From positions 16,802,001 to 16,866,000 of the forward strand of contig NC_134477.1 in the NCBI RefSeq assembly GCF_964194025.1: DNA of 64,000 bases, read 5' to 3'. Source of the stretch: Convolutriloba macropyga (taxonomy: Eukaryota). The notes under the pieces are model-generated. The model was not told the origin of the DNA. It made no database searches and was given only the letters and a program-made list of their open reading frames with translations. This document shows positions 22,429 through 52,451 of the stretch, in pieces. The first letter of the stretch is position 1. Every line of letters starts with the position of its first letter. Made by a program: the position numbers and the translations under genes.

Positions 22429-23390
22429 TTAAATGATACATTTTGAAAGCTCTTGTTCATAAAATTGACCTAGAATTTCATCCCCTTGTTCTCCTCAAAG
22501 GCTATAGGTTAGTGGTTTATATGTAGCAACTTTAACAAATTTGAAGATTTCATTTGTGAACTGAGATTTGTTACCTTTTCTGAACGGAATATCTTTTCTT
22601 GATATACAAAAATTTTCATCCATATTTAAAACGCGTGGTCGCTTATTTTGGTTAATTGGGTATCGGTAAAAAATTGACAAAAGTCTTTGTTTGTTACATT
22701 TTTTGGAGCTTTACCTATTGACCGATTAACTATTGTGTTCGTAGTTTGTGAAAAGAATTCTTTTTTTCTTATGTATTTTTCACCATTTTTCCCTATAGCG
22801 ATAAATAATGTTTTTCAGCAATTTTATGGCTGCTTCTGCTGCCGCATTTTTTGTTTCCCTTTCAGTAGAGTGAACTATTATTTTCATGTCTGTACAAAAT
22901 TTTTTAAAAAAACTCGCCACAAAATTCTGATCCCTGATCAACCCATACTTTTTTCACAAACAACAACCCAACTTTTTTCACAAAACTTTTTAACTAAAAT
23001 TTTTTCACGAAACTCTTTTTACAAAACTTTTTTTGAAAGCCTCAAATGCATTGGTAGAATAATTTGACTTCAAGGTTGCACACAAATAAAGCAAGAAGAG
23101 ACGTCAACATATAAGTAGAAATACTTCGTTCCGTTATTAGAGTCCTATATTTTATCCATAAAAGCCAGATCAAGACACCAGGTCTCATCGAATGGCTTGG
23201 GAAATGCTGGTAATCTTTTGAAATGTCGTTTTGCATGACGACATTTTGTATCGGAATCTTTACTGTGCAGAAAAAAAGTCACTTTCTTTTTGGATAAGCC
23301 ACTTGACTTTTGTAGATTTTTAATTGACCCATATTCGGCTGTTCCATGTCTGTACAATCTTTCTGCCTTGGTTTTTTTTCTCAGTCTAAT
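22429..23390 (-). pseudogene. Polinton retroviral-type (rve/c-int) integrase remnant
   Basis: YRHGTAEYGSIKNLQKSSGLSKKKVTFFLHSKDS..K.RHAKRHFKRL...ETWCLDLAFMDKI; WVDQGSEF (about 22925-22950); RISRKDIPFRKG-type segment CISRKDIPFRKGNKSQFTNEIF..TY; GQFYEQEL; stop at 22431-22429. Frameshifted. Confidence 0.9.
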
Positions 23391-26300
23391 TTTTAGCTGC
23401 CTTTCTTTATCTGTTCAAAAGCAATAAAAATGTTCTGCTGAAATGTCAGATACCCTTGAAATTTTTCTTCAAGGTTGAGCCTGTTATATTGAAATGCGAT
23501 AAGTTACACTTTTGCTATTATGAGATCAACTGAACGATTATTGTCTGTATTCTCGTGTCTCTCGATCTGTCGTTGTTTTTGCGTAGACAATAGTTCTCAA
23601 CGCAACAGTTAACCTGTTATTTTTTTCTTGCAGCTATTTGTTAAATATATTTCTGAAACATTTTTGAACCGGGTGAGTTTGAAAGTGATTGGAAAATGAT
23701 CTAAAAAACGCGAGTTTTCATCGGAGATTGATGTCTTATTTATTATTGCCCGCAAACAAAGTTCGTTGAAATTATATTAGTTCTGTTGGTCTTTTTTGCG
23801 TGATTATGTGATTCTTCGATTGATCATTTTTTTGACACATTCGAATTTTCGCCCTCAACAGCGGGATAAACAGTTAGAGCACGGGGGCAACATCTGCTCT
23901 TAGAGCCTTTCAGTTCAATGGTCTCCAAATATGGGATTAACAGAAACATTTTTGAAGACTTATACATATGGTTTGAAGGTGGTTTTTAGAGGTGTTTTGA
24001 CATTCGTCGTGTTGCATGACCATACTTTGTATAGGAATTTTTACTGTGCAGAAAAAAGGCAACTTTCTTTTTGGATAACCATCTTGCCTTTTGTAGAACT
24101 TTAATTGGCCCATATGCGTCTTTTCCATGTCTGTACAACCTTTGTAGCTTGGTTTTTTTTCTCTGTCTAAGTTTGACTTGCCTTTTTTATCTGTTCAAAA
24201 GCAATAAAAATGTTCTGCTGAAGTGTCAGATACCCTTAAAACTTTTCAAGGTTGAGTGTGTTATATTGAAATGCGACAAGTGACACTTTTGATATTATGA
24301 GGTCAGTTGGAATGATTTTTGTCTGTATTCTCAGGTCTTTCGCTCTGTCATAATTTTTGCGTAGAAAATAGTTCTCAACGCAACAGTTAATGTGTCGTTT
24401 AAAGCCTTGCAGCTATTTTTTATATATGTTTCCGAAAACTTTCTGAAACAGATGAGTTTGAAAGTGATTGAAACGGATCTAAAAAAACGCGCGTTTTCAT
24501 CGGAGATTGATGTCTTATTTTTTATTGCTCTCAAACAAAGTTTGAAAGCGATTGGAAACTGATCTAAAAAAAATGCGCGTTTTCATTGGAAATTGACGTC
24601 TTATTTATTATTATTGCTCTCAAACAAAGTTTGTAGCAATTATATTAGTTCTATCGGCCTTTTTGTATGCGATTCTTCGATTGACCATTTTTTTGACACA
24701 TTTGACTTTTCGCCCTCAAAAGCGGGACAAACAGTTAGAGCACGGGGGCAATATGTGCTCTTAGAGCCTTTCAGTTCAGTGGCCTCCAAATATGGGATTA
24801 ACAGAAACAGTTTTGGAGACTTATACATATGGTTTGAAGGTGGTTTTTAGAGGTGTTTTGACATTCGTCGTGCTGCATGACCATACTTTGTATAGGAATT
24901 TTTACTGCGCAGAAAAGAGGCAACTTTGTTTTTGGATAACCATCTTGCCTTTTGTAGAACTTTAATTGGCCCATATGCGTCTTTTCCATGTCTGTACAAC
25001 CTTTGTAGCTTGGTTTTCTTTCTCTGTCTAAGTTTGACTTGCCTTTTTTATCTGTTCAAAAGCAATAAAAATGTTCTGCTGAAGTGTCAGATACCCTTAA
25101 AACTTTTCAAGGTTGAGTGTGTTATATTGAAATGCGACAAGTGACACTTTTGATATTATGAGGTCAGCTGGAATGATTTTTGTCTGTATTCTCAGGTCAT
25201 TCGCTCTGTCATAATTTTTGCGTAGAAAATAGTTCTCAACGCAACAGTTAATGTGTCGTTTAAAGCCTTGCAGCTATTTTTTATATATGTTTCCGAAAAA
25301 CTTTCTGAAACAGATGAGTTTGAAAGTGATTGAAACGGATCTAAAAAAACGCGCGTTTTCATCGGAGATTGATGTCTTATTTTTTATTGCTCTCAAACAA
25401 AGTTTGAAAGCGATTGGAAACTGATCTAAAAAAATGCGCGTTTTCATTGGAAATTGACGTCTTATTTATTATTATTGCTCTCAAACAAAGTTTGTAGCAA
25501 TTATATTAGTTCTATCGGCCTTTTTGTATGCGATTCTTCGATTGACCATTTTTTTGACACATTTGACTTTTCGCCCTCAAAAGCGGGACAAACAGTTAGA
25601 GCACGGGGGCAATATGTGCTCTTAGAGCCTTTCAGTTCAGTGGCCTCCAAATATGGGATTAACAGAAACAGTTTTGGAGACTTATACATATGGTTTGAAG
25701 GTGGTTTTTAGAGGTGTTTTGACATTCGTCGTGCTGCATGACCATACTTTGTATAGGAATTTTTACTGCGCAAAAAAGAGGCAACTTTGTTTTTGGATAA
25801 CCATCTTGCCTTTTGTAGATTTTCAATTAACCCATATACGGCTTTTCCATGTCTAAACAATCATTTTACCTAGGTTTTTTTTCTCTGTCTAATTTTGAGC
25901 TGCCTTTTTTTATCTGTTCAAAAGCAATAAAAGCGTTCTGCTGAAAGGTCAGATTCCCTTGAAACTTTTCTTCAATGTTGAGTCTGTTATATTGAAATGT
26001 GACACTTTTGCTATTATGAGATCAACTGGAATGATTTTTGTCTGTATTCTTGGGTCTCTCGCTCTGTCGTAGTTTTTTCGTAGACAATAGTTCTCAACGC
26101 AACAGTTAACCTGTCATTTATTGCATTGCAGCTATTTGTTAAATATATTTCCGAAAAATTTTCTGAAACAGGTGAGTTTGAAATTGATTGAAAAATGATC
26201 TTAAAAAACGCGCATTTTCATTGGAGATTGATGTCTTATTTATTATTGCTCTCAAACAAAGTTTTTTGAAATTATATTAGTTCTGTTGGTCTTTTTGTAT

Positions 26301-50300: not shown

Positions 50301-52451
50301 CCTTTTTTATCTATTCAAAAGCAATAAAAATGTTCTGCTGAAGTGTCAGATGCCCTTGAAACTTTTCAAGGTTTAGTGTCTAATATTGAAATGCGACAAG
50401 TGACACTTTTGTTATTATTAGGTCAGCTGGAATTATTTTTGTCTGTATTCTCAGGTCTTTTGCTCTGTCATAATTTTTGCGTAGACAAAATTTCTCAACG
50501 CAACAGTTAATCTGTCATTTAATGACTTGCAGCTATTTGTTAAATGTATTTCCGAAAATTTTTCTGAATCAGGTGAGTTCGAAAGTGATTGGAAAATGAT
50601 CTAAAAAACGCGCGTTTTCATCGGCGATTGATGTCTTATTTATTATTGCCCTCAAACAAAGTTCGTTGCAATTATATTAGTTCTGTTAATCTTTTTGTCT
50701 GCGATTCTTCGCTTGACCATTTTTTTGATACTTTCGACTTTTCGTCCTCAAAAGCGGGATAAACAGTTAGAGCACGGGGTCAATATGTGCTCTTAGAGCC
50801 TTTCAGTTCAATGGTCTCCAATTATGTGATTAACAGAAACAGTTTTGGAGACTTATACATATGGTTTGAAGATGGTTTTTAGAGGTGTTTTGACATTCGT
50901 CGTGTTGCATGACCATACTTTGTATAGGAATTTTTACTGTGCAGAAAAAAGGCAACTTTCTTTTTGGATAACCCGCTTGCCTTTTGTAGAACTTTAATTG
51001 GCCCATATGCGGCTTTTCCATGTCTGTACAACCTATGTAGCTTGATTTTCTTTCTCTGTCTAAATTTGAGCTGCTTTTTTTATCTATTCAAAAACAATAA
51101 AATGTTCTGCTGAAGTGTCTGATACCCCTGAAACTTTTCAAGGTTTAGTGTCTAATATTGAAATGCGACAAGTGACACTTTTGTTATAATTAGGTCAGCT
51201 GAAATGATTTTTGTCTGTATTCTCAGGTCTTTTGCTCTATCATAATTTTTGCGTCGACAAAGTTCTCAACGCAACAGTTAATCTGTCATTTAATGACTTG
51301 CAGCTATCTGTTAAATGTATTTCCGGAAATTTTTCTGAATCAGGTGAGTTTGAAAGTGATTGGAAATTGATCAATAAAAAAACGCGCGTTTTCATCGGAG
51401 ATTGATGTCTTATTTATTTTTGCCCTCAAAAAAAGTTTGTTGCAATTATATTAGTTCTGTTAATCTTTTTGTCTGCGATTCTTCGATTAACCATTTTTTT
51501 TGATACTTTCGACTTTTCGTCCTCAAAAGCGGGATAAACAGTTAGAGCACGGGGTCAATATGTGCTCTTAGAGCCTTTCAGTTCAATGGTCTCCAAATAT
51601 GGGATTAACAGAAACATTTTTGCAGACTTATACATATGGTTTGAAGGTGGTTTTTAGAGGTCTTTTGACGATTGTCGTGTTGCATGACGATACTTTGTAT
51701 AAGAATTTTTACTGTGCAGAAAAAAGGCAACTATATTTTTGGATAACCCACTTGCCTTTTGTAGAACTTTAATTGGCCCATATGCGGCTTTTCCATGTCT
51801 GTACAACCTTTGTAGCTTGATTTTCTTTCTCTGTCTAGATTTGAGCTGCCTTTTTTATCTATTCAAAAGCAATAAAAATGTTCTGCTGAAGTGTCAGATA
51901 CCCTTGAAACTTTTCAAGGTTTAGTGTCTAATATTGAAATGCGACAAGTGACACTTTTGTTATTATTAGGTCAGCTGGAATTATTTTTGTCTGTATTCTC
52001 AGGTCTTTTGCTCTGTCATAATTTTTGCGTAGACAAAAGTTCTCAACGCAACAGTTAATCTGTCATTTAATGACTTGCAGCTATTTGTTAAATGTATTTC
52101 CGAAAATTTTTCTGAATCAGGTGAGTTCGAAAGTGATTGGAAAATGATCTAAAAAACGCGCGTTTTCATCGGCGATTGATGTCTTATTTATTATTGCCCT
52201 CAAACAAAGTTTGTTGCAATTATATTAGTTCTGTTGATCTTTTTGTCTGCGATTCCTAGATTAACCATTTTTTTTTGACACATTTGACTTTTCGTCCTCA
52301 AAAGTGGGATAAACAGTTAGAGCACGGGGTCAATATGTGCTCTTAGAGCCTTTCAGTTCAATGGTCTCCAAATATGGGATTAACAGAAACAGTTTTGGAG
52401 ACTTATACATATGGTTTGAAGGTGGTTTTTAGAGGTCTTTTGACGATCGTC
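23215..52451 (-). repeat. Macrosatellite: 38 head-to-tail units of ~760-785 bp (variants 861 and 443 bp) derived from the integrase 5' end and upstream Polinton DNA
   Basis: The marker GGGATTAACAGAAAC (or a close variant) was counted 38 times between about 23932 and 52375. Units carry the integrase N-terminal codons (LYRHGKAAYGPIKLLQKASGLS.KKVAFFLHSKDSYTKYRHATR). The first unit is continuous with the rest of the integrase. Confidence 0.97.

What the first reader, a model, noticed from the sequence alone, without database searches (positions are those of the whole stretch)
23215..52451. 29-kb macrosatellite born from the integrase 5' end of an endogenous Polinton/adintovirus, still attached to its parent gene
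Seen: 38 tandem ~775-bp units, each containing the first ~50 codons of the Polinton integrase plus ~600 bp of upstream DNA. The leftmost unit runs directly on into the rest of the integrase and the capsid module, so parent and array sit side by side. In several units the integrase N-terminus (AAYG..KASGLS..HSKDSYTKYRHATR) looks closer to the family pattern than the parent copy does (AEYG..KDSDTKCRHAKR). Established: TE-derived satellites exist, and Polintons encode rve integrases. Inference: this records satellite birth from a DNA-virus-like element. Because the unit spans the integrase start and upstream region, the array could also act as a small-RNA or heterochromatin-nucleating locus against active relatives.
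Basis: partly seen in the sequence, partly recalled or inferred. Interest (0 to 1): 0.85.

Follow-up and report, generated by a model that had tools for sequence, protein, structure and literature searches.

The report
Satellite from a LINE–Polinton junction
A 775-base stretch where a broken retrotransposon meets a broken virus-like DNA element was copied head-to-tail 38 times, giving a clear but mechanistically ordinary example of satellite DNA born in place from mobile-element debris.

Summary
The array is real: 38 head-to-tail units at 23224-52451, 86-99.9% identical, with local dimers and private variants at both edges. The leftmost unit runs on into a decayed rve integrase and a probable major capsid gene. 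But the unit is not the integrase 5' end plus upstream DNA. It is a three-part chimera: about 155 bp of integrase codons ~16-66 (start codon absent); about 360 bp of a LINE reverse-transcriptase C-terminus (36 of 38 units match, E<1e-5); and about 255 bp of a third, unidentified repeat inserted in that LINE. The same LINE and the same insert continue into the right flank. So both flanks are parents, and the array ends in exact phase between two ~15-nt imperfect microhomologies. Best reading: a deletion joined a LINE to a half-Polinton, a microhomology-mediated duplication seeded the repeat, and unequal exchange or conversion amplified it neutrally (no codon-position bias). With no integrase start, the promoter idea fails; the small-RNA role is untested. 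Polinton-homologous satellites are already reported in locust and oyster. A well-preserved new member of a known kind.

The parts
23224..52451 (.). Tandem array of 38 units of ~775 bp (37 near full length, one of 443 bp), plus 4 nt of a 39th unit at the right end
23214..23227 (.). Left microhomology inside the integrase gene (8-nt exact block plus a 3-nt block shared with the right end)
52436..52451 (.). Right microhomology inside repeat B; internal junctions read as right-end prefix joined to left-end suffix
   Evidence: 86 of 5000 random pairs score as high
51673..51828 (-). Example (unit 38), part 1: Polinton-type integrase codons ~16-66, no start codon; same part in unit 1 at 23224-23378
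51829..52190 (-). Example (unit 38), part 2: LINE ORF2 C-terminal region (P0019 aa ~338-445 at 52188-51880; the last ~50 bp towards the integrase are only weakly assigned, perhaps to aa ~455)
   Evidence: 80.5 bits vs at most 21.6 in 200 shuffles
52192..52690 (-). Repeat B, ~500 bp, unidentified, inserted in the LINE between codons ~335 and ~338; G-rich part in the flank, A-rich end in the unit; its inner ~255 bp is part 3 of every full unit. Outer limit approximate
   Evidence: (P0016 matches 52546-52192, E 1e-9)
52712..53308 (-). Same LINE in the right flank: reverse-transcriptase core, P0019 aa 136-329
   Evidence: E 2e-18; relatives carry RVT_1
22432..23223 (-). Rest of the parent integrase gene, with stops and frameshifts
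   Evidence: relatives carry rve
21330..22430 (-). Decayed penton-like and core-protein-like genes; labels from position and recalled motifs only, limits approximate
   Evidence: translations; Pfam negative; not otherwise tested
20034..21318 (-). Decayed probable double-jelly-roll major capsid gene
   Evidence: 48 relatives, mapped; Atlas lead PF21738 on 24% of one cluster's members, recognition below threshold
19300..19610 (-). Decayed protease-like gene; label from a recalled motif only, limits approximate
   Evidence: Pfam and PDB negative
18843..18914 (+). Decayed tRNA (CAU anticodon) near the left end of the Polinton relic
   Evidence: Rfam 31 bits, E 0.017; ARAGORN negative

Best explanation
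A neutral satellite formed in place at a junction of decayed mobile elements. Step 1 (shown as anatomy; order inferred): a LINE carrying a ~500-bp insert (repeat B) came to abut the integrase/capsid half of a Polinton-type element in the same orientation. The LINE lacks its 3' end and the integrase its 5' end, so the join is most simply a deletion. Step 2 (inferred from the junction sequence): a break repaired between two ~15-nt imperfect microhomologies 775 bp apart, one in the integrase and one in repeat B, gave the first tandem duplication. Step 3 (pattern shown, mechanism inferred): unequal exchange and gene conversion grew it to 38 units, with recent one- and two-unit duplications, while the outer edges kept private variants. 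The array makes no functional protein and is not selected for coding.
For: LINE core in the right flank and LINE C-terminus in the units, same strand, consecutive codons. P0016 links the G-rich flank to the unit's right part. Integrase continues left. Right end in exact phase, microhomology at both ends. Dimers 4-5/6-7, 8-9/10-11, 35-36/37-38 and best matches up to 99.9%. Identity falls with distance (rho -0.45; 0 of 2000 permutations). Unit 1 has 25 private sites, 22 in its outer 500 bp; all 7 of unit 38's lie in its outer 280 bp. Differences by codon position 9.7/7.1/8.3%; by segment 8.8/8.1/7.7%. An in-frame Met upstream of the integrase piece in only 2 of 38 units, LINE-derived.
Against: The microhomology is short and only modestly above chance (86 of 5000). 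LINE relatives are only 34-49% identical, and nothing was compared at DNA level, so the LINE/integrase breakpoint is uncertain by ~50 bp. Only 2 relatives show what lies upstream of the integrase. The order of LINE and Polinton arrival is unresolved. Neutrality was tested only for protein coding. Edge asymmetry (unit 1 far more diverged than unit 38) is unexplained.
Confidence: 0.8

Rival explanations
1. One reading: the unit is the native integrase start plus upstream/promoter DNA of a Polinton.
For: The integrase piece and the attached parent gene are real.
Against: Unit positions ~205-515 match RVT_1 proteins. The family's first 15 residues and the upstream extension of P0001/P0004 are absent. 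The right flank is LINE, not Polinton.
Confidence: 0.03
2. The chimeric segment belonged to a mobile Polinton subfamily that had captured the LINE piece, so the same junction or satellite exists at other loci and this is one of several arrays.
For: The family is multi-copy in the source contigs (12 integrase and 48 capsid clusters).
Against: Of 6 hits to the unit's non-integrase part, the only chimeric one is identical to the window's own ORF. The LINE continues at least 600 bp into the flank. Both flanks are in phase.
Confidence: 0.07
3. The array has been co-opted as a small-RNA or heterochromatin source. Plus-strand transcripts would be antisense to both the integrase and the LINE at once.
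For: Anatomy only: both fragments lie on one strand, 38 times; units are still ~79% identical in protein to relatives.
Against: No data on RNA. No strong CpG-decay footprint (CpG o/e 0.77 vs 0.82-0.88 in flanks; CpG-context difference 0.197 vs 0.163). No unusual RNA fold (z -0.76). The integrase part is not better conserved than the rest. The LINE part is far from the relatives found.
Confidence: 0.08
4. Assembly artefact.
For: The window has two gaps (16597-16796, 17575-18000); some unit pairs are 99.5-99.9% identical, so the exact count could be off.
Against: No gap in the array; units differ by 8% on average, with tree structure, indels and edge gradients.
Confidence: 0.02

Closest known systems
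LmiSat34-299 of Locusta migratoria (PMC4935994; one passage seen) and CgiSat52, 1656 bp, of Crassostrea gigas (PMC8268682; Table 1 row seen)
   Same: Satellites with reported homology to Polintons (LmiSat34-299 to a coding sequence).
   Different: The passages seen give only a Repbase match. Here the array is seen with both parent flanks and junction microhomology, and only ~20% of the unit is Polinton. Their supplements were not read and may hold more detail.
Maize CRM1TR and CRM4TR (PMC3648361; passages seen)
   Same: Tandem arrays of a several-hundred-bp piece of a mobile element; proposed to start by illegitimate recombination at short repeats, possibly in nested elements, and to grow by gene conversion.
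   Different: They derive from a single LTR retrotransposon family, lie in or near centromeres, are 97-98% identical to extant parents, and no single-step repeats were found. Here three unrelated elements form the unit and a single-step microhomology is present.
Polinton/Maverick (adintovirus) elements (PMC4028283, passages; 10.1101/697771, section 5 and passages)
   Same: rve integrase followed by probable capsid genes on one strand.
   Different: Only the decayed integrase/capsid half is here; no polymerase, ATPase or second end was found.
Non-LTR (LINE) retrotransposon ORF2, relatives P0019-P0021
   Same: RT core and C-terminal region, aa 136-445 of P0019.
   Different: Interrupted by repeat B, lacks both ends; clade not determined.

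Membership tests
TE-derived satellite DNA | Long head-to-tail array of a repeated unit | tested here: met
   38 units over 29.2 kb
TE-derived satellite DNA | Unit homologous to mobile elements | tested here: met
   rve integrase; LINE ORF2 in 36 of 38 units
TE-derived satellite DNA | Local homogenisation and higher-order structure | tested here: met
   dimers, distance decay, edge variants
TE-derived satellite DNA | Heterochromatic or centromeric location; other loci in the genome | not testable with these tools
   no host assembly, reads or chromatin data
Polinton/Maverick (left flank) | rve integrase | tested here: met
   12 PF00665 relatives map over 22432-23378
Polinton/Maverick (left flank) | Double-jelly-roll major capsid protein | tested here: inconclusive
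   48 relatives; Atlas feature hits include PF21738 (24% of members) and PF16903 (24%), recognition 2196 below 2300; Pfam 0 of 6, PDB none, single-sequence model pLDDT 30.6
Polinton/Maverick (left flank) | Penton (minor capsid) | tested here: inconclusive
   Pfam negative on broken frames; label recalled
Polinton/Maverick (left flank) | Adenovirus-like protease | tested here: inconclusive
   Pfam and PDB negative; label recalled
Polinton/Maverick (left flank) | Protein-primed PolB and packaging ATPase | tested here: not met
   no Pfam hit in six frames of 52452-55200, three minus frames of 18950-22460, or the ORFs scanned; sensitivity on decayed frames is low. Filed as a relic half, not an intact member
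Polinton/Maverick (left flank) | Terminal inverted repeats and target-site duplication | tested here: inconclusive
   no long inverted pair in the window; only short direct repeats at 18524-18832
LINE ORF2 (unit middle and right flank) | Reverse-transcriptase domain | tested here: met
   relatives RVT_1 E 1.6e-34 to 1.1e-24; window matches E 2e-18
LINE ORF2 (unit middle and right flank) | Intact 3' end and tail | tested here: not met
   no match beyond aa ~455 at the junction or left of the Polinton; filed as a fragment
piRNA/siRNA source locus | Uniquely mapping small RNAs, silencing marks | not testable with these tools
   no expression or chromatin data

The most novel reading that the evidence does not exclude
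The host has kept a 38-copy chimeric array as a compact dual-target silencing locus. One plus-strand transcript would be antisense to both a Polinton/adintovirus integrase and a LINE reverse transcriptase, so satellite amplification would act as a dose amplifier of small-RNA defence against an endogenous DNA virus family that is still multi-copy.
Probability: 0.08. Interest if true: 0.7.

Novelty: new member of a known kind. Interest (0 to 1): 0.3.

Why it matters
It is an unusually complete record of how a satellite starts: both parent flanks, the seeding microhomology, dimeric higher-order repeats and edge gradients all lie within 30 kb. That makes it a usable test locus for models of unequal exchange versus conversion. 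It also warns that satellites labelled 'Polinton-derived' from one database hit may be mostly other debris. It shows no new viral or host function unless small-RNA data say otherwise.

Tried and rejected
Unit as Polinton upstream DNA or as an accessory Polinton ORF: rejected once the hits proved to be LINE ORF2. Selection on the integrase piece: no third-position excess. Polinton inserted into the LINE, with the LINE 3' end left of the element: an eye-catching match at 18342-18389 did not beat shuffles (132, 164 and 283 of 300 shuffles scored as high), so the order of events stays open. Methylation-driven decay: weak at most. RNA structure of the unit: ordinary. The sigma-70 scan does not apply to a eukaryote and was ignored. 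Genomic context of intact relatives: the prokaryotic genome collection gave 132 pattern matches and 0 relatives; viral and metagenome contigs were not searched, so the family's gene order at DNA level is unchecked. Capsid fold: Pfam, PDB sequence search and a single-sequence model were uninformative; no fold search was run. Repeat B: no Rfam hit and no convincing terminal repeats. Host species: not established; a eukaryotic transporter gene lies at 58573-59298, and a paper search on a host guessed from memory found 0 papers. Literature: searches listed no paper on a LINE-Polinton chimeric satellite; subscription journals are mostly outside the library. Passages of PMC7598501, PMC12910113, PMC9026859, PMC7754599 and PMC4992247 held nothing relevant.
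Full report
Observation. A self-comparison gives about 37-fold coverage from about 23.2 to 52.45 kb and almost none outside. An anchor search finds 38 units starting at 23224. Of the 37 spacings, 34 are 758-785 bp, two are 861 bp (an internal duplication of ~86 bp in units 2 and 3) and one is 443 bp (unit 17, internal deletion). 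The array has no assembly gap; the window's two gaps lie at 16597-16796 and 17575-18000. Pairwise identity is 86.0-99.9%, mean 91.9%; unit 1 is the most diverged, at 87.7% to the rest.

Left flank. A natural ORF from unit 16 found 12 proteins, all with the rve domain, 73-85% identical over about 52 residues (rve confirmed for 4 of 4 tested). They map on the minus strand from residue 16 at 23378 to residue 313 at 22432, across frameshifts. So unit 1 does run into the rest of the integrase. Further left, a decayed gene at 21318-20034 has 48 relatives, the longest 430-464 aa. For one intact relative the Atlas gave feature hits at 0.98 to eukaryotic clusters, one carrying the double-jelly-roll family PF21738 on 24% of members, but recognition was below its threshold. 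Pfam (0 of 6), PDB and a single-sequence model (pLDDT 30.6) added nothing. The capsid label is therefore probable, not shown. The penton, core-protein and protease labels rest on position and recalled motifs (Pfam and PDB negative). A decayed tRNA lies at 18843-18914. No polymerase or ATPase was found in the regions scanned. Against the gene set described in PMC4028283 (passages) and 10.1101/697771 (section 5, passages), this is a relic half of a Polinton-type element.

What the unit is made of. The integrase piece covers codons ~16-66. The family's first 15 residues match no unit, and only 2 of 38 units have an in-frame Met upstream of the piece. Two relatives, P0001 and P0004, carry a ~120-residue N-terminal extension, read here as the gene that normally precedes the integrase. 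It has no match in the window: best E 5.1 for P0001; best E 0.035 for P0004, a weak hit that falls on the integrase piece rather than upstream of it. A search with the unit's non-integrase part gave 6 hits. One is the window's own ORF; four match unit positions ~205-515; one (P0016) matches positions 513-675. One of the four, P0017, led to 3 longer proteins with a reverse-transcriptase domain. P0019 matches 36 of 38 units at E<1e-5, P0020 37 of 38, and the more distant P0021 9 of 38. The real segment scores 80.5 bits against at most 21.6 for 200 shuffles. The unit carries residues ~338-445 of P0019. The ~50 bp between there and the integrase read weakly as further LINE codons (E 0.006-0.011 in a 200-bp search, seen in 2 of 4 units tested) and are unresolved.

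Right flank. The same proteins match 53308-52712 on the same strand with residues 136-329 (E 2e-18). Between codon ~335 and codon ~338 lie about 500 bp of other DNA, here called repeat B. P0016, an ORF not from this window, matches it from 52546 in the G-rich flank through the array boundary to 52192 (E 1e-9). So B is probably a dispersed repeat, and the flank is its natural continuation. B has an A-rich inner end, no Rfam hit and no clear terminal repeats; its class is unknown. Read right to left on the minus strand the locus is: LINE core, B, LINE C-terminus, integrase from codon ~16, capsid genes. The array repeats the 775 bp from inside B to inside the integrase.

Junctions. The last unit ends in exact phase, followed by 4 nt of a new unit and then flank. 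Both ends share an 8-nt block and a 3-nt block a few bases apart. Each internal junction reads as the right-end prefix joined to the left-end suffix. Random pairs from the rest of the window score as high in 86 of 5000 trials, so the microhomology is supportive, not decisive.

Array evolution. The tree of all 38 units separates units 1, 4, 6, 8, 10 and 12 from the rest (100/99). Recent duplications show as monomer pairs (2/3, 26/27/28) and dimers (4-5/6-7, 8-9/10-11, 35-36/37-38), and nearest neighbours change along several units, as expected from conversion or exchange. Identity falls with distance (rho -0.45; 0 of 2000 permutations). Unit 1 has 25 private sites, 22 in its outer 500 bp; unit 38 has 7, all in its outer 280 bp. 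The three parts diverge alike (8.8, 8.1, 7.7%), and the integrase codon positions differ by 9.7, 7.1 and 8.3%, so no selection for protein is seen. But those units share ancestry, the gap is about 4 residues, and unit 1's outer part is the least homogenised stretch. That edges escape homogenisation is established knowledge, recalled, not taken from a paper read here.

Mechanism. Shown: the three-part anatomy, continuity into both flanks, phase, hierarchy and lack of coding selection. Inferred: a deletion joined the LINE to the half-Polinton; repair between the microhomologies made the first duplication; unequal exchange and conversion made the rest. Whether the LINE entered the Polinton or the reverse is open: the missing LINE 3' end was not found left of the element. 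Confidence 0.8. The silencing role is possible from anatomy, since plus-strand RNA would be antisense to both fragments. Nothing here supports it: weak CpG signal, ordinary folding, no better conservation of the viral part.

Comparison and verdict. Satellites with Polinton homology are on record: LmiSat34-299 (PMC4935994, passage) and CgiSat52 (PMC8268682, table row). Arrays seeded by illegitimate recombination in mobile elements are described for maize CRM1TR/CRM4TR (PMC3648361, passages), and TE-satellite links are reviewed in PMC5615363 (passages). Searches listed no LINE-Polinton chimeric unit, within a library that lacks most subscription papers; supplements were not read. The locus is a new, well-preserved member of a known kind. 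Interest 0.3; the bold reading (dual-target small-RNA locus) has probability about 0.08 and would merit 0.7.

Noticed in passing
window 6393-14137: LTR-like element: 1.1-kb direct repeats (6393-7520, 13059-14137; 87% identical; TG...CA-type ends) around a 5.5-kb G-skewed interior whose ORFs (6 scanned, 99-271 aa) have no Pfam hit. Possibly a non-autonomous or unusual LTR element.
   Followed up: partly
window 153-730: Minisatellite of ~32-bp units with 64-bp higher-order variants.
   Followed up: no
window 54427-57918: Decayed RT element on the plus strand (RVT_1 at 55978-56727) between short direct repeats at 54430-54528 and 57852-57918; Penelope-like by recall, not tested.
   Followed up: partly
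window 58573-59298: Open 242-codon frame of a TPT-family (SLC35-type) transporter, probably a host gene exon.
   Followed up: partly
window 18843-18914: Decayed tRNA with CAU anticodon beside short direct repeats (18524-18832) at the left end of the Polinton relic; may be carried by the element.
   Followed up: partly
window 53390-53418 and 52642-52670: A 29-nt motif (86% identical) occurs in repeat B and again just beyond the LINE fragment's outer end; a weak match to B's inner end lies at 58050-58107.
   Followed up: partly
window 35017-35418 and 36221-36622: Units 16 and 18 hold an open 134-codon LINE-integrase fusion frame, present as a predicted protein in the library (P0013, 100% identical); most likely a chance result of a frameshift.
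   Followed up: partly
window 53570-53760 and 59955-60263: Further plus-strand remnants that look like LINE reverse-transcriptase pieces by recalled motifs (translations); not matched by P0019-21.
   Followed up: no
window 4807-5295: 163-codon open frame on the minus strand with no Pfam hit.
   Followed up: no
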